A stretch of 64,000 nucleotides of DNA from Botryllus schlosseri (lineage: Eukaryota): assembly GCA_051294905.1 (NCBI GenBank), contig CM119371.1, positions 21,640,001 through 21,704,000 on the forward strand. The letters are read 5' to 3'. Below are positions 3,684 through 63,412 of the stretch, in pieces. Under the pieces are notes generated by a model. That model searched no databases. It was not told the origin of the DNA and saw only the letters and a list, made by a program, of their open reading frames with translations. The position numbers and the translations under genes are program-made. How positions within the stretch are numbered: position 1 is the stretch's first letter; the number at the start of each line of letters is the position of its first letter.

Positions 3684-4520
3684 AATATGGTACCATAAGC
3701 AGTAGTCGATCATTAAATTTCTGCGCTAGTTGCAAGAGCTCACTTTGATTTGATGATCTCTATCTATTTTGCCATTAGCTAAAAGGCCCCCCTCCTACGT
3801 TTACGCAAATGTTATCATTTTGCAAATAACTGTGAAAATACATGTACCCATGTAGTATGTAATACCGCACACAGAAGTCAATCATTAAATTACTGCACCT
3901 GCTAAAAACTTACTTTGATTTTATGAGGGGGGCCCCTTCTTCATTTACGCGATTTTTGGTTATCATTTTACGAATAACCGTAAAAATACATGTACCCATG
4001 TAGCATATGGTACCGTAAACAGTAGTCGATCATTGAATTTCTGCATCCGCTTAAAGAGCTTACTTCGATTTTATGAGCCCCCCCCCCTACATTTATGCGA
4101 ATTTTAGTTATCATTTTGCGAATAACCGTGAAAATGTATGTACCGATGTAGAATATGGTACCGTAAACCGTCGATCATTAAATTTCTGCATCTGCTAAAA
4201 GAGCTTACTTTGATTTTATGAGCCCCCCCTTATATTTATGCGAATTTTAGTTGTCATTTTACGAGTAACCGTGAAAATATATGTACCCATGTAGAATATG
4301 GTACCTAAACAGTAGTCGATCATTAAATTTCTGCACCTGCTAATAGAGCTTACTTTGATTTTATGAGCCCCCCCCCTCCATTTATGCCAATTTTAGTTTA
4401 TCATTTTGCGAATAACTGTGAAAATACATGTAGGCCTACCCATGTAGAATATTGTCTTGTAAACGGTGTTCGATAATTGAATTTCTGTGCTTGTTAAAAG
4501 AGCCTACTTCGATTTTATGT
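3540..4520. repeat. Tandem repeat, ~147-bp unit, about 6-7 copies, inside the hAT
   Basis: ttatcattttRcgaataac recurs near 3640, 3811, 3960, 4108, 4250 and 4398. Confidence 0.9.
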
Positions 4521-6357: not shown

Positions 6358-6679
6358 ACAGACAAAAATTTTTTTTCTATAACTTACAATTTTTTCATTA
6401 GTGCGTGTTGTTTCGTGTGTGTAGCTGTTTATTTACAAATTGCGCTGCTACTATAGTACCGTATGTCCGTATACTTCAAAGTTTGTTGTTGTTGTCATTG
6501 TTACAATGCGAATATCATGGTTTGTGATTTTGATTGTTGCGTCATACTTTGCCGTTTTGATTTTGCTTTCAAATCTATTTAAATCCCTTAGGTGTGCAGT
6601 TAACTCTTGAAGAGAGGCACCCAAAAATTATCCGAGTTCAATAAATATTATATTACAATGGATGTTGTATTGAAAGCTA
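6358..6679 (+). mobile_element. Diverged solo 3' end (pLTR) of a related PLE
   Basis: Collinear with 9930-10249 but with many substitutions. Confidence 0.85.
6602..6638 (+). ncRNA. Degenerate minimal hammerhead ribozyme in the PLE pLTR
   Basis: aactc-TTGAAGA-gaggcaccc-AAAA-attat-CC-gagtt; GAAA and the UH site are mutated. Confidence 0.55.
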
Positions 6680-9450: not shown

Positions 9451-10172
9451 ACCATCACGATGATGCAGGCATCTCTCTCACTGTGCAGCCTCATTTTGCC
9501 GCCCCCTTGGAGCCTGCGGCCCCTGGCGCAGAGCCAGAACCGCCAGGTGGCTGCTACGCCACTGGTGAGAGTGTGTGCATTGTGTTTGCATATTTCATGT
9601 GTGTGAATGAGAGTGCGCGCGATAAAATATAAATGGAAATTATATGTATTGAAATTATTAAAGCAATAAATATGTTGGCGGACAGCCAAAAGAAAAAAAA
9701 ATGAAAGTTTCAACATGATGTACAGACAAAGCACTACCAGAACAGTGTATACGTGGTGTAGAACAATGAAGGTATCGATAAGCGCTAGTGAGGGGGGTCC
9801 AGAAGTTTCGATAATATAGATAAGGAGGGCCCCCCCGGAAGTTTCGCCTAGGGCCCCCCCAATCGTAAGGCCACCACTGTTTAAAAGTGTTGGAGTCTAC
9901 TATTATTCAGTTGAGCAAACCTATTTTATGCAGACAAAAAGATTTCCTCTATAACCAACAAATTTCTCATTAGTGCGTGTTGTTCCGTGCGTGTAATTGT
10001 TTATTTACAAATTGTGCTGCTACTATAGTACCGTATGTCCGTATACTTCATAGTTTGTTATTGTTGCCATTGGTACAATGCGAATTTCATGGTTTGTGAT
10101 TTTGATTGTTGCGTCATACTTTGCCTTTTTGGTTTTTCTTTTAAATCTGTTTAAATCCCTTTAGTGTGCCGA

Positions 10173-10211
10173 TAACTCTTGAAAAGAGGCACCCGAAAAG
10201 TCTTCGAGTTA
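10173..10211 (+). ncRNA. Minimal type I hammerhead ribozyme (U3-A8 variant) at the PLE 3' end
   Basis: Stem I taactc/gagtta; core TTGAAAA (10179-85); G-aggcacc-C; GAAA (10195-98); near-palindromic stem III aagtctt; cleavage predicted after C10205; AATAAA follows. Confidence 0.8.
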
Positions 10212-11374
10212 ATAAATATTATTCTACAATGGATATTGTATTGATAACTTAGCATTGATGATCAGTAATTTCCGTGACCCAATCTTGGTCTAAATGAATT
10301 ATGTTTGGCTAGGTGAGAACGAGAATGTTATGCTCATTATATAAGAATTTTCCCCTAAAATATCGTAGGATAAAGCCATACAATGAAACAAAGAATAATT
10401 CGAAACGAGGTGGACGATTCTATATAAATGGAACACCCAAATTGACGGAAAAATACATTAAAAAATAGGATGCAAGCTAAATGAAACAGAAAATACATAT
10501 ACATGAAAAGCTAGAAGCAATGAAGGACGTCGCCGTATCAAAATTGCGATCCTTTAATCTCAAAACGGCAGCAACTTGCAACCGGTAAGTATGGATTTGA
10601 ATAATAAATTTTGTTGTTGATATGTTGAGATAGACCTGAATAATTCGACTGACACTCATCAGTAGGGCGATTTTTTTTTGACATGTCAAAAAATGTCAAA
10701 ATTAGGTCAAAATTGTAGCGTTAGGTCAAAATTTGTCAAAATTGTTCACAAAGTCAAACATTTTTTAACCTCTGAATTTCGTTTGTATCGTAGATTTTGC
10801 GCTGTCGGTGAACTTATCACTTGATATTTTACAGCTTGTAGTCTACTTTATAAGCCTGCAGTTGTAAACGACCCATCGTCTGCTCATTGTGAATCATAAA
10901 CGATCATATGAAACAAATAGTGACATGGTTTTATGGTCAACGTACCGCAAACCGCAATATCCTAACTGAAGCAAGACTGCTTGGACATTGCATGATTCTT
11001 ATATCAAGAAGCGCAAGCTGAAAAATTGTGATATAGACAACATTGTCAGAATGAAGCAACACGGTGTGTCACCAGCAGTGGTACACACAACTTCAGTGTT
11101 GTCAGCCAACAACCACTGCTGTTTAACGTTCTTTCTCCATTCTTGGCAAGCTACCCAGTAAGGACAAACACTTTCTACCCGAGAATATAGGAAAGTAAGC
11201 TATCTTTCGTTCGTTGTACTACAACAAATTTCAATTATTTCCACCATAATACGTAATGTAACTACTGGAATTCTTCATAGGGCCAGATTTCGTTAAAATA
11301 CTAGTTTCTTCATGGGCTTCTTGAAGGTACGGAACTTCAATATACAATTGAATAGTATATTCACATTGAAATGA

Positions 11375-11408
11375 ACGCGAATATTTTCGGCTGACACACG
11401 TCAGGGGT
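11375..11408 (-). ncRNA. Hammerhead ribozyme copy with a core mutation
   Basis: Minus strand reads accc-CTGACGT-gtgtcagcc-GAAA-atat-TC-gcgt. Confidence 0.65.
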
Positions 11409-11525
11409 AATCGTCAGCAACTAGTAGAGAATTGGAAAGAACATGGTATATCAACAATCGTATCACAAAATATGACGTGTTGATATAACATGTTCTTCCC
11501 AATTCTCTACTAGTTGCTGACGATT

Positions 11526-11559
11526 ACCCCTGACGAGTGTCAGCCGAAAATATTCGGGT
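11526..11559 (+). ncRNA. Minimal type I hammerhead ribozyme, intact core
   Basis: accc-CTGACGA-G-tgtcagc-C-GAAA-atat-TC-gggt; palindromic stem III aatatt; cleavage predicted after C11555. Confidence 0.88.
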
Positions 11560-12410
11560 TCATTTCGATATGAATATATACTATTCAATAGTTTTTTCAT
11601 GTAAAAATTTGCCAGTTTTTGTGCCCAAAACGTTTTTTCAGGCCAATCTACTTTGTAAGGACAGACAGTTTCAACCAGAAATGAAGATAAGTAGTACAAT
11701 TTTGACATTATGTGCGAAAACACCTAATTTGCATACGTAAGGCCAAAATTTGGTCAAATTTCGGTTTTTTAGGTCAAAAAATGTCAAAATTTAGATTTTT
11801 TAGGTCAAAATCTTCCCTTTTTTAGGTAAAAAAAAAATCGCCCTACTCATCAGGGTTAATCATCAGCAACTAATGGAACATTCAAAAGAATATTGTATAC
11901 CAAATGTATGTCGGAAAATATCTATAAGTTCCCGAAAAGCTGTGAAATTCACATGACATTCCATCGCCGGCCACAGAGCCGCATGGCCGTTTGAAATGCG
12001 GTCATTTCACCTGTTGTTTTAATTCTCCTGTCAGTACTGAACACCATGACCTAGTACCTGGAAGAAACAATTAGGGCATCAAAGAAACAATAAAATGGGG
12101 AAAATCCTCTATAAATTCCATAAAAGCTAAAAGCTGTTAAATTCACATAACATTCTGCGGCCAGCCACAGCCCAGCTCGCTGTGGCCGTTACTCATCCGT
12201 TCTGATAACTTTTTTTTTCAACCATAGGGTAGAGTTGCAACCGACTGCATAGCTAGTTATATTGTATGGAGCTGAATAGTTGCGATTTCAATACTGATGG
12301 GCTGATGAATTCGCTCAACACTTGCATAAGCGCCTTTGCATTCTGTCGATGAAAACACGACATGTAGGCTTCAGCCGTTTCCTTCACAATGAAGCAGTCA
12401 TGCTGTAAAA

Positions 12411-56973: not shown

Positions 56974-59675
56974 CATAGGTGTATGGGAGAAAAAACTTTT
57001 GGGGATGCGAATTTTTTTTGCCCAAATAGACGGTGAGCGACAAAAGTAGTTATAAAGCACCTAATAGTGTAAATGACGCGGTGGGAAGAACTTTACCCAT
57101 ATTTAGGACAAACTGCAATACAGTCAAAGCAAGATAACCCATCACTGAAGCGAAATCCAAAATTATTTCAAGGCTCGGATATTTATGGGCAGTCAGTATC
57201 ACCAATTCAAAAAAAGTATTTGTCTCAGCCACTGCCATGATGCATACCAAATAGACTTACATCAATGATGTGCTCAATATTGACGATAGGTAAAATACCG
57301 CCATGTTGATAAGTTGTGCTTGACCCATAGTCTATCTGAGATGTTTTTTAGTCTTTTCAACTTCGAAAGTGCACTTTCAGAACCGCAGTCAGAATTTTTC
57401 CATCGTTGTAAGATGAGTCTTGCACTTTGCATGATTAACCAATTTATGAGGCATCCTCCAATGCGAATACTTGCATCCATCATTTGATTTGTTGAATTTC
57501 AGGCATGGACAGCGTTTCATAGTCTTGTCATTTTTGTTACAAGTTATCCAGGGATGAGTTTTGAAGACTTGAGATTTCGTTTAGAAGAGTTGGATTGAAA
57601 TCTCCTGTTTCTCATCGCCATAGGCTATTTCTTTGGATTGTAGCATTGTAAAATTTGTCGATGCATGTCGGTTGATGTCCGAAAACTTTCTCTTTTGATG
57701 ATTATCCATTGGATTACCTGGGTAAAATTCAAAACCTTTACCGACTTTTTAGTAGATACACTATTATTTACTATTTCTCAAGTTAGCGAGCAACTGATCT
57801 CCACTTACATGGTGGAGAATACCGTATACCTGATAGGCGAAAACTACAAGAACTAGTTTATATACTGCTTATCATCAAAGCTAACATAATTTCATGCAAA
57901 ATCCCGATTGAAAGAGACATACAGCTAACCTGCTTTCTGTATAAATTTTGAATCCAACAAATTCCCGACATCGCGACACTTCTTATTCCCCCTCAACCAA
58001 CACACCCTCAGCTAACACAAAAGACAATGACATTTTTCATTGCAATTCGGCATAAATAAAGTGGCAGAGATAGGTATGACATGAGCCAACAAACCAAACA
58101 TACATTCTGTTGGATTAGTGTGCGATGAACCATAGCTGCAATAATGCCTGTGATATTAGATTGCCTTTTCCAAGATATGATTCAAGTTTAACGATATGAT
58201 ATCATTTTTACCTTATGCAGAAATTGTCCCTTGGTTTATGCGACGTCAGTCGTGTTCATCTCATATCCGGATTGATAGACTGAACATGTTCGTTCACCTA
58301 TGACCTCTAATGTTTTGTTCCAACCCAGTGACCACTACTGACGAGTCTACTACGTCCAGCTTGTCGTGTTATTTTTGGCGATGACCAAAACTCGTTGATG
58401 AGCAATAAGAAATTTAGCATCCTGAAAGCTGCATACTTAGGAAATCCATGAATTTAACTTCCTTCACATTTTTAAACTTATTGCTTTGCAAGAAAATGTA
58501 GGTACAGTTATTGTTTCAAAGAAAAATGCAGGTTACGTACCGTACCGGTAACGTTTTCTATTAGTACGTTGGGCTGACCGAATCTAGAAGTTATTCTAAT
58601 AAAGAATTAGATTGCAAGTCTGGTGTCAATCATTATTATCTCATAACAGGTTTTATGATTTAGAAATATGAATATCTTATGCCATAGAAGAAGAAGCGTA
58701 AAATATCGACTTTACGGCCATAAGAAGATGGAAGATTTGGTGCAGATGGTCCATCGACGGCCATAATATGCTGAAACTAAGATCTAAGTAAGTGGAAAAG
58801 ATGTCTGAAGAGGGGAACGCCATCCATTCGAGTTCCGGGCTAATCTGATGGAGGATTGCCGAATGTCCATAGGTGACATAGTGGACAGTGATACGGTCAT
58901 AATATGCTGAAACCAGGATCATAAGTATGTAGAAAAACATTTCTAAGGAGAGGAAAGGCCAACCATGCATGTTCCAGGCTAATTTGACAGAAGATTGCCC
59001 AATGTCCATTGATGACATAGCGGACAGTGATACGGTCATAATATCCGGTATGTAGAAACCAGGATCATGAATATGTGGAAAACATTTCTAAAGAGACGAA
59101 AGGCCAACCATGCGCGTTCCAGGCTAATTTGACAGAAGATTGGCCAATCTCCATCGATGACATAGCGGACTGTCATACGGTCATAATATGTAGAAACCAA
59201 GATCATAAATATGTGGAAACCATTTCTGAAGATCTGGGAAACCCAACTATGCGAGTTCCAAGCTAATCTGGGGGAAGATTGCCCAATGTCCATCAATTAC
59301 ATAGCGGATATGCGGATACGGTCATAATATGCTGAAACCTCAATCAAAATATGTGGATAATGGAAATTTTGATGCTCGCTTCATACGCTTGTCATGGTGC
59401 CGTTAACTCCATAAAGGGCATACGAAAAGTCCTCGAATTAATAACATATACTGCAATGAATGTATTGCCTTGAAAAAATATACCTGTTACTATAAATATA
59501 TACCTACTCCACGTATATTGTACAATTTTCTGTCAATGCTAATGTAATATAGTAATGAAGCAGATTAGAGTATTCTTTTGAAGTTATAGTGAAACTAAAA
59601 TAATCAATTTGCCAAAAATTCCAAACATTTGGGGATGCGGCCGCATTCGTCGCATACCCCTCCCATACGCTGGTG
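56974..59675 (-). mobile_element. Nested hAT (Tip100-like) derivative
   Basis: Imperfect TIR ca..gYgtatgggag; TSD tgtttctg (56966-73, 59676-83); SESALSKLKRLK dimerization remnant near 57370. Confidence 0.82.
58740..59345. repeat. Tandem repeat, ~140-bp unit, about 4.5 copies
   Basis: ggtcataatat..gaaacc recurs near 58760, 58895, 59034, 59179 and 59320. Confidence 0.88.
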
Positions 59676-62331: not shown

Positions 62332-63412
62332 CAGTGGTCGGGAACCTATGGCTCGCGAGCCATATATGGCTCTTTTGGGTAAAGATATGGCTCTTTGCCA
62401 AAATTCATTTTTGTACTGAATTGATCAATATTGCAGCGACTTGTTGGTAAATATTCATCACGGCTAGAATAATTATTCTCGTGGCAGTATAACCATGTCT
62501 TTGAAAGGTAAAGACAATGCCGTCTTCAGGTTTAGGGGCTCGGCTCGGACCCCTTCTTTTCAAAATCATCAAATTTAAGTTACTGCCACGCTGGCGGCCA
62601 ATATCACTCGCGAATTCTATGTACTCGACTCGGAATTTTGAATTGTGCGATACGTTGATTAATCAAAGAGCATATTAAGCAGACATGGCGACACCCATTT
62701 CAAAACGCAGTTTTCAAATACACATTGTCTTCCTGATCTACGGCGCAAAATGAACTGTTGTGGATGTGAAATTCACAATTACAAACTCGAATTACAAACA
62801 ACGCCATAGCATCCACGTTCTTGATTGGTAAGTTTAGCTCTGTGTAGTACCGGCGATAAAATGTATTGGTGTAGCGTAACGTTATATTACCGCCGAATAC
62901 TTTGATAACTGAGAAGTCGATTAGTACCGTATTTAGATTTTCGGAATCAGTGTGACAGTCACATTCGATTGATATCGGTTATAATAAATTCTTACGATGA
63001 ATTGCATTATCAATGTTGAGGCTTGGCCCGTCTGTGCTTTACCACTCGTTTCGAGCTTGATTTTCGAACAATAAATACCAGTTTTTACAGAGAAAATATG
63101 GCGCACACGAAGAATTCCAATATACAATTGAATAGTATTTTCATATCGAAATAAACCCGAATATTTTCGGCTGACACTCGTCAGGTTTCGAGTTTATTTC
63201 AATATGAATATACTATTCAATTGTATATTGAAGTTCTGTACATCCAAGAAGCTCTATGAAGAATTCCATGTAGTGAGTTCGAATTAGTGCTAGACGTCAT
63301 GAATTTTCAATTGTGACGTAACGGTTGATTGACATGTATGGCTCTTTGGGAGTTGAGATGGAAAAAATAGGGCCAATATGGCTCTTCGGACAAAAAAGGT
63401 TCCCGACCACTG
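62332..63412. mobile_element. hAT-Charlie-type MITE containing a hammerhead palindrome
   Basis: Perfect 16-bp TIR cagtggtcgggaacct; TSD atctaata (62324-31, 63413-20); atatggctc repeats. Confidence 0.93.
63153..63187 (-). ncRNA. Hammerhead ribozyme core, same family as 11526; stem I disturbed by the inversion junction
   Basis: Minus strand reads aaac-CTGACGA-gtgtcagcc-GAAA-atat-TC-gggttt. Confidence 0.75.

What the first reader, a model, noticed from the sequence alone, without database searches (positions are those of the whole stretch)
10166..11559. Two unrelated hammerhead families share a predicted loop-II / 5'-flank pseudoknot
Seen: both ribozymes have stem II reduced to one G-C pair closing a 7-nt loop. 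In family B the loop tgtcagc (11538-44) is complementary to gctgacg (11516-22), 3 nt upstream of stem I. In the PLE family ggcac (10188-92) is complementary to gtgcc (10166-70), 2 nt upstream of stem I. The sequences differ completely but geometry and complementarity match, which resembles covariation. Inference: Watson-Crick pairing replaces the usual loop-loop tertiary contact and stabilises these minimal ribozymes.
Basis: partly seen in the sequence, partly recalled or inferred. Interest (0 to 1): 0.75.

Follow-up and report, generated by a model that had tools for sequence, protein, structure and literature searches.

The report
Pseudoknotted hammerhead ribozymes in Penelope elements
A group of related jumping genes in this genome carries thousands of small self-cutting RNA motifs whose second stem is replaced by a six-base-pair knot; paired mutations show the knot is under selection, the knot type is already known from a solved ribozyme structure, and it had not been noted in such jumping genes in the papers I could read.

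Summary
The pairing is real and supported by covariation. Both motifs are type I hammerheads at the 3' end of Penelope-like retroelements (RT plus GIY-YIG). Stem II is one G10.1-C11.1 pair; loop nt 2-7 pair with a 6-nt strand ending 8 nt before core position 3. Sister subfamilies change both partners together (97 of 100 listed copies Watson-Crick at two free pairs); relatives in metagenome contigs keep the helix. The families are not unrelated: their endonucleases are 47-55% identical and fall in one clade. The fold type is known: the pseudoknot (PK) hammerhead, crystallised as PDB 8YDC, has the same single pair and knot. What differs: no conserved helix IV or A-rich triplex linker, the knot strand joins helix I almost directly, and stem III is the tiny palindromic dimer type. 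Reviews say Penelope hammerheads lack tertiary contacts, and the published search pattern (stem II at least 3 bp) would miss these. Phage contigs hold similar motifs. Cleavage is untested; two key papers were unreadable. The scan noted this knotted stem before, elsewhere in this genome (e1-7786987). Verdict: new variant of a known kind.

The parts
9880..10244 (+). 5'-truncated Penelope-like element, family A: end of the GIY-YIG ORF (stop 9971-9973), 3' UTR, hammerhead A and a 39-nt tail past the predicted cleavage site
   Evidence: Translation and BLAST ends (34 of 48 hits end at 10244); homologous ORF in L049
10165..10171 (+). Knot strand of A: 10166-70 pair with 10188-92; U10165.C10193 mismatch; G10171 opposite loop nt 1 (A10187)
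   Evidence: subfamily variants
10173..10211 (+). Hammerhead A core: stem I 6 bp, UUGAAAA (U3-A8), G10186-C10194, GAAA, near-palindromic AAGUCUU, predicted cleavage between 10205 and 10206
   Evidence: U3-A8 variant described in PMC4209133
11516..11522 (+). Knot strand of B: 11516-21 pair with 11539-44; G11522.U11538 cap
11526..11559 (+). Hammerhead B core: stem I 4 bp, CUGACGA, G11537-C11545, GAAA, palindrome AAUAUU, predicted cleavage between 11555 and 11556
11359..11426 (-). Inverted second copy of B with the knot intact but A9 changed to U and a stem I mismatch; left arm of a 101-nt inverted repeat (11356-11456 / 11478-11578)
10634..11872 (-). Third, decayed B-like copy, split at its core by the DNA transposon below (pieces about 10634-10662 and 11846-11872)
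   Evidence: read; repeats D3, I2, I5
10663..11845 (.). Multi-copy non-autonomous DNA transposon (terminal inverted repeats, 8-bp duplication CTCATCAG at 10655-62 and 11846-53; hAT-like by that length, label from recall) that carries the inverted B pair
   Evidence: I3; 40 of 40 scored candidates match at 91% or more

Best explanation
These are type I hammerhead ribozymes of one clade of Penelope-like retroelements, folded like the PK hammerhead but without its helix IV. Shown by sequence comparison: conserved core with C3-G8/U3-A8 covariation; covarying stem I; one G10.1-C11.1 pair; a covarying 6-bp helix between loop nt 2-7 and the strand just 5' of helix I; a self-complementary stub as stem III; position after the ORF stop and, in a tandem full-length element, 19 nt before the next start codon. 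Inferred: the 6-bp helix stacks on G10.1-C11.1 in place of helix II, the conserved G at -8 caps it opposite loop nt 1 (as the G:A cap in the crystal structure), and the strand crosses almost directly into the top of a 6-8 bp helix I, holding helices I and II side by side. Inferred from the literature on such stubs: cleavage needs two copies to pair through stem III, and processes tandem element transcripts in a minority of molecules, since genomic copies run 33-39 nt past the cleavage site and so derive from uncut template.
For: Free-pair test: pattern leaving two pairs open has 552 matches (0 control); in the 100 listed rows 42 AA/TT, 30 GG/CC, 25 GA/TC, 2 G.U, 1 mismatch (tallied by hand). 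Two multi-copy sister subfamilies differ at only 2 of 34 positions, and these are pair partners (B5/B5b). On 22 representatives 93.9% of cells pair, 6 of 6 pairs change on both sides, score 0.614 against 0.165 shuffled (0 of 500 reach it), slid registers 23-36%. Metagenome loci found by the protein alone: 33 motif matches in 30 of 80 loci, 26 with 6 of 6 pairs, 6 with 5, 1 with 4, from about three distinct families. Decaying copies do not compensate: 2 of 100 listed rows restore the outer pair. Stem I is 6-8 bp in most intact families and stem III is palindromic. Structure precedent: PMC11300833. Mutant precedent for a 1-bp stem II with a 6-bp knot in a type II hammerhead: PMC3088659. Full-length 2778-bp element with intact ORF and a motif at both ends: L324.
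Against: No cleavage assay. RNA reads of 4 runs cover the repeats on both strands but show no pile-up of ends (random-fragment and single-cell libraries, weak test). The commonest A subfamily has a broken outer pair (87 of 100 listed rows). One 4-copy subfamily (A5) breaks two inner pairs, along with its cleavage site. A variant lacking the whole flank recurs. Pair 3 is U-A in 21 of 22 rows and pair 6 C-G in 19 of 22, so covariation rests mainly on pairs 1, 2, 4, 5. The 22 representatives were hand-picked, three because they showed compensation, and row M3 is misaligned in A3. Nested energy folding of monomers gives non-hammerhead hairpins for most representatives. Many B copies may have spread as cargo of a DNA transposon, so copy number is not selection.
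Confidence: 0.72

Rival explanations
1. The helix is real and selected but belongs to an inactive alternative hairpin (flank paired with loop, enclosing the core) that keeps the ribozyme off so that uncut RNA can be reverse-transcribed.
For: Minimum-energy folds of B3, B5, B6, B7, s2, A2 and M3 show this hairpin, often extended by pairing of the stem I 5' strand with G8-A9-G10.1. Genomic copies extend past the cleavage site. In an anole PLE, hammerhead cleavage was not needed for insertion in vitro (PMC11167929, passages).
Against: The helix stops exactly at C11.1 and leaves G10.1-C11.1 free (the base at -15 cannot pair with C11.1 in 20 of 22 representatives); register is fixed; stem I covaries as well; phage hammerheads with long stable stem III have the same loop-flank pairing (17 of 23), and the crystallised form with this knot is fast. 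The folding program cannot form pseudoknots.
Confidence: 0.12
2. The knot is mainly a recognition or initiation structure for the element's own protein (reverse transcription start about 35 nt downstream, or translation of the ORF), and cleavage is secondary or vestigial in these families.
For: Slow-type cores and sites persist as family consensus: U3.G8 in metagenome family M1, U at position 17 in B5b and M1. Insertion ends cluster 33-39 nt downstream. The anole PLE hammerhead needed protein to cleave.
Against: The catalytic core is kept across families whose ORFs are about 50% identical, with C3-G8/U3-A8 covariation; this does not exclude both roles.
Confidence: 0.12
3. The matched changes come from a mutational process (template switching between short inverted repeats) and not from selection on RNA structure.
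For: A few single decayed B1 copies carry matched changes (two rows; s2).
Against: 98 of 100 listed copies mutated at the outer pair are uncompensated; most copies mutated at loop nt 2 are uncompensated (by eye); arms are 6 nt and 23 nt apart start to start; the same geometry occurs in phage hammerheads.
Confidence: 0.04

Closest known systems
Pseudoknot-containing (PK) hammerhead ribozyme (found by Weinberg et al. 2015, not readable here; structure PDB 8YDC, Zhan et al. 2024, PMC11300833)
   Same: Type I order; single G10.1-C11.1 pair closing a short loop; loop paired over about 6 bp with a strand 5' of helix I; a G opposite the first loop base and tolerance of a non-standard pair at the other end; standard core.
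   Different: No conserved helix IV around the knot strand and no AUAAAA linker (8 nt lie between knot and N3, most of them in helix I); loop of 7 nt against 6 in the crystal construct; stem III a palindromic stub instead of a stable helix; found in retroelements of a eukaryote.
[quoted passage not shown] 2017, not readable here)
   Same: Position in the repeat at the element's 3' end and before the ORF; type I; palindromic stem III stub; U3-A8 variant; thousands of dispersed copies in many families; inverted-repeat arrangement.
   Different: All 56 published representatives have helix II of 3 bp or more, most with an extra base after A9, and the descriptor demands 3-7 bp. Two reviews state that PLE hammerheads lack the characteristic tertiary contacts.
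[quoted passage not shown] 2011, PMC3088659)
   Same: Watson-Crick helix joins the sequence after G10.1 to the stem I side; 6 bp; shown there by mutants to be needed for fast cleavage.
   Different: The tested example is type II and from a metagenome; repetitive type I motifs were excluded from the stem-length analysis.
Uncatalogued phage type I hammerheads seen here (IMG/VR loci)
   Same: One-pair stem II, 7-nt loop, 5-6 bp with a 5' strand; six loci (L407, L375, L386, L360, L353, L387) have the same short spacer of 7-9 nt.
   Different: Long stem III (monomer type); another group (L377, L409, L355, L341, L408) has helix IV and an A-rich linker like the crystallised form.

Membership tests
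Hammerhead ribozyme, type I | Core CUGANGA ... GAAA ... UH with N3-N8 pair | tested here: met
   B has the standard core; A has the U3-A8 covariant; both cleavage triplets UUC
Hammerhead ribozyme, type I | Stems I, II and III around the core, open at stem I | tested here: met
   Stem I 4-8 bp and covarying; stem II one pair; stem III a stub
Hammerhead ribozyme, type I | Match to an Rfam hammerhead model | tested here: not met
   0 matches at gathering in the window; no hammerhead family at E up to 10 in 10000-12000 or E up to 1 in 17 loci
Hammerhead ribozyme, type I | Site-specific self-cleavage | not testable with these tools
   RNA reads show no end pile-up, which these libraries are poorly suited to show
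PK hammerhead (8YDC type) | Single G10.1-C11.1 pair closing the loop | tested here: met
   Seen at 10186/10194 and 11537/11545; 9085 matches against 24 control for the pattern that demands it
PK hammerhead (8YDC type) | About 6-bp pseudoknot between that loop and a strand 5' of helix I | tested here: met
PK hammerhead (8YDC type) | Helix IV (5 bp) enclosing the knot strand | tested here: not met
   4-5 possible pairs in B1, B2, B2b and s2 only; at most 2 contiguous pairs in the other 18 of 22
PK hammerhead (8YDC type) | A-rich linker forming a minor-groove triplex between helix IV and helix I | tested here: not met
   Only 0-4 unpaired nt between knot strand and helix I
Minimal PLE hammerhead (Cervera 2014) | Lies in the terminal repeat of an RT plus GIY-YIG element | tested here: met
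   109-209 nt after the ORF stop in L011, L063, L086, L049; at both ends of L324; weak RVT_1 and GIY-YIG hits below Pfam cut-offs, RT domains on homologues
Minimal PLE hammerhead (Cervera 2014) | Absent or palindromic stem III suited to dimer formation | tested here: met
   AAUAUU in B, AAGUCUU in A, AAGCUU in most others; dimer cleavage itself not testable
Minimal PLE hammerhead (Cervera 2014) | Conventional helix II of 3 bp or more | tested here: not met
   One pair only; published descriptor needs 3-7 bp

The most novel reading that the evidence does not exclude
A whole clade of Penelope-like elements uses the smallest natural form of the PK hammerhead (about 50 nt, no helix IV). It is a fast ribozyme held in check only by the need to dimerise, it has been invisible to the standard search patterns, and its cut leaves an uncapped 5' end 19 nt before the ORF start codon that serves translation of the element. 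Some elements now listed as having only a hammerhead 'core' would then carry overlooked knots of this kind.
Probability: 0.2. Interest if true: 0.72.

Novelty: new variant of a known kind. Interest (0 to 1): 0.48.

Why it matters
Hammerheads of Penelope-like elements are described as lacking tertiary contacts, slow in vitro and of unknown role. A covariation-supported pseudoknot in one clade gives a direct test: constructs must include about 15 nt upstream of the core, and compensatory mutants are already supplied by natural subfamilies. It also shows that search patterns needing a 3-bp stem II miss about ten thousand motifs in this one genome, and it offers a shorter scaffold than the crystallised PK hammerhead.

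Tried and rejected
Rfam found no hammerhead (the miRNA hits only reflect the inverted repeat). Non-circular permutation (type SGC, PMC10085705) was considered because B's flank repeats CUGACGA, and rejected: block order is ordinary type I and other subfamilies lack the repeat. A conserved helix IV was tested and not found. A first viral scan (80 of 113 stretches listed) gave 4 of 80 with stem I of 3 bp or more and no convincing motif; a narrower one gave 5 loci, none folding as type I. Protein-based scans of viral and prokaryotic contigs found no relative. Sequencing runs: no RNA holder listed; four raw-read RNA runs laid on 9890-11470 showed no place where many molecules begin or end; no conclusion drawn. 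Pattern hits at L101, L103, L104, L105, L304, L305 have no stem I or knot and belong to other repeats; they, and singles with truncated or decayed flanks, were left out of alignment A3. Motif search in the supplement of PMC8557442 gave no copy of this subfamily among the places shown. The last literature search was too loose to be informative. The whole genome could not be scanned by script, so genome-wide figures are pattern counts and only the first 100 rows of each were seen.

Full report
Observation. Motif A (10165-10211) has the core UUGAAAA, a U3-A8 version of the hammerhead core; motif B (11516-11559) has CUGACGA. In both, one G-C pair closes a 7-nt loop before GAAA, stem III is a self-complementary stub, and the cleavage triplet is UUC. 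Counted from core position 3 the complementary strand lies in the same place in both: six bases ending 8 nt upstream, against loop nt 2-7. B has six Watson-Crick pairs and a further G.U; A has five and a U.C mismatch at the pair nearest the core. Rfam does not detect either motif.

Abundance. The genome (495.5 Mb, 219 contigs, unnamed) has 9085 matches to CTGANGAG-N7-CGAAA against 24 for the reversed pattern and 1375 against 64 for a U3-A8 pattern. Only the first 100 rows of each search are listed, and the genome could not be scanned by script. A covariance model found six matches in the window, among them an inverted copy of B and three decayed copies.

What carries them. Upstream of A the window encodes the last 30 residues of an ORF that in other loci is a reverse transcriptase with a C-terminal GIY-YIG region (the Pfam hits are below cut-off; 642 homologues at E up to 0.001, most of the 120 listed with RT domains). 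B-type motifs follow the same kind of ORF (L011, L063, L086). L324 is a 2778-bp unit with an intact ORF and a motif at each end; the start codon lies 19 nt after the predicted cut. A-type insertions end at 10244 in 34 of 48 BLAST hits, 39 nt past the cut; B-type ends cluster at 11588-11594 (48 of 155 hits), matching the 30-40 bp tail described for PLEs (PMC8557442, passages). So these are Penelope-like elements, and the inserted copies derive from RNA that was not cut at the 3' motif (inference). The window's B pair itself sits inside a multi-copy DNA transposon, and L015 holds the same arrangement.

Related, not unrelated. Over about 200 C-terminal residues the A-linked ORF is 47-55% identical to B-linked ORFs. 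In a tree of 11 rows the nine knot-bearing elements group apart from two distant elements (29-39% identity) whose hammerheads have an ordinary long helix II, and A1 groups with B5b and the metagenome families (98/99) and not with B1 or B2 (only two outgroup rows, midpoint root). The RNA alignment shows intermediates. The shared geometry is inherited.

Covariation. The least biased test left two pairs free in the search pattern: 552 matches, 0 control; of the 100 listed rows 97 are Watson-Crick at both free pairs in three combinations (42, 30, 25), 2 have a G.U and 1 a mismatch (hand tally; these rows are copies of a few subfamilies, not independent events). Subfamilies B5 and B5b differ at 2 of 34 positions, which are partners of pair 4; B6 and B7 differ at 3, two of them partners of pair 5. 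On 22 hand-picked representatives 93.9% of cells pair, all six pairs change on both sides, the score is 0.614 against 0.165 in shuffles (0 of 500), and slid registers pair at 23-36%. Caveats: three singles were chosen because they showed compensation, subfamilies that break pairs were included, row M3 is misaligned, and the shuffle ignores kinship. Independent support comes from metagenome loci fetched by protein alone: 33 motif matches in 30 of 80 loci, 26 with six pairs, 6 with five, 1 with four (best spacer chosen among 5-14; 29 at 8, two at 11, one each at 7 and 6), representing about three families because most contigs repeat one. As a control, decayed copies mutated at the outer pair are compensated in only 2 of 100 listed rows.

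Against. The commonest A subfamily keeps a U.C mismatch at the outer pair (87 of 100 listed rows). Subfamily A5 breaks two inner pairs and its cleavage site. A flank-less deletion variant recurs. Nested folding prefers inactive hairpins for most monomers. RNA reads cover the repeats on both strands without end pile-ups, which shows neither cleavage nor its absence.

Mechanism. Best reading (0.72): the 6-bp helix stacks on G10.1-C11.1 in place of helix II; a G at -8, present in most families, faces loop nt 1; the strand then passes over 0-4 unpaired bases into helix I, which is 6-8 bp in most intact families. In B1 and B2 helix I is 4 bp, but the four linker bases can pair with the bases just 5' of the knot strand (4-5 pairs, with matched changes between B1 and B2), which would make the knot a loop-loop kiss on top of an 8-bp composite helix; this rests on two families. 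The stem III stub points to cleavage as a dimer, as proposed for PLE hammerheads (PMC4209133; PMC6765202 passages). Rivals are an off-switch hairpin (0.12), a protein recognition role (0.12) and a mutational artefact (0.04).

Comparison with what is known. The PK hammerhead (PMC11300833; abstract, parts 1-2 of 5 and passages read) has the same single pair, a 6-bp knot capped by A:A and G:A pairs that replaces helix II, and cleaves at 16 per minute in the authors' buffer. It also has a 5-bp helix IV and an AUAAAA triplex linker, which these motifs lack, so they work like it but are not filed as members. Perreault 2011 (PMC3088659; passages, section 6 and the garbled text of Fig. S4) reports knots between stems I and II in about 40% of hammerheads of all three types and mutant tests on a type II ribozyme with a 1-bp stem II. 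Cervera 2014 (parts 1-2 of 4 and the whole supplement text) describes PLE motifs with helix II of 3 bp or more and the U3-A8 variant; its descriptor cannot match these. PMC6155905 and PMC7761336 (passages) say PLE hammerheads lack the characteristic tertiary contacts. PMC13725137 (passages) reports viral type I motifs with 1-2 bp helix II, slow cleavage and no clear loop contacts. PMC11167929 (passages) found a PLE hammerhead that needs protein and is dispensable for insertion in vitro. PMC12192606, PMC7936874, PMC10085705 and bioRxiv 10.64898/2026.07.22.740005 were seen as passages or single sections. Some have helix IV, others the short spacer seen here.

Novelty. Searches for hammerhead with Penelope and pseudoknot (14 papers, 13 listed, 6 of them opened), with helix II, tertiary and dimer, with pLTR and stem II, with one or single base pair (no papers) and for pseudoknot-containing hammerhead showed no report of this knot in PLEs. 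Lunse 2017 and Weinberg 2015, the two papers most likely to contain it, could not be read, nor could their supplements or those of the preprint. Verdict: a real, selected RNA helix; new variant of a known kind; interest 0.48.

Noticed in passing
window 10663-11845: Multi-copy non-autonomous DNA transposon with 8-bp target duplication, inserted into the core of a decayed B-like hammerhead and carrying an inverted pair of B motifs as cargo.
   Followed up: partly
L232 2644, L225, L235 and related metagenome loci: A whole family has the core UUGAAGA, giving a U3.G8 wobble, and U at position 17, yet keeps knot, stem I and palindrome.
   Followed up: no
L407, L375, L386, L360, L353, L387 (phage contigs): Type I hammerheads with a long stem III, 1-bp stem II and a knot strand 7-9 nt before the core, without helix IV: monomer-type counterparts of the motif studied here.
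   Followed up: partly
L377, L409, L355, L341, L408 (phage contigs): Natural PK hammerheads with helix IV and an A-rich linker, 7-nt loop.
   Followed up: partly
L103 1-311 (also L101, L104, L105): A different multi-copy repeat with a tRNA-like box upstream and a hairpin-rich body that resembles a twister-type motif (resemblance from recall); no Rfam match at E up to 1.
   Followed up: partly
G000:C1:22034516-22040105 (L324 holds one unit): Head-to-tail copies of a 2778-bp Penelope-like element with an intact ORF; likely a young family and the best source for tests.
   Followed up: partly
window 10164-10165: Family A1 is the one abundant family with G at -15, which could pair with C11.1, and is also the one with a broken outer knot pair; possibly a trade-off that protects G10.1-C11.1.
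   Followed up: partly
window 6585-6652 (+), 59388-59453 (+), 63139-63193 (-): Three further decayed copies of the motif in the window.
   Followed up: no
window 3811-4519 and 58757-59357: Tandem repeats with periods of about 148 and 139 bp.
   Followed up: no
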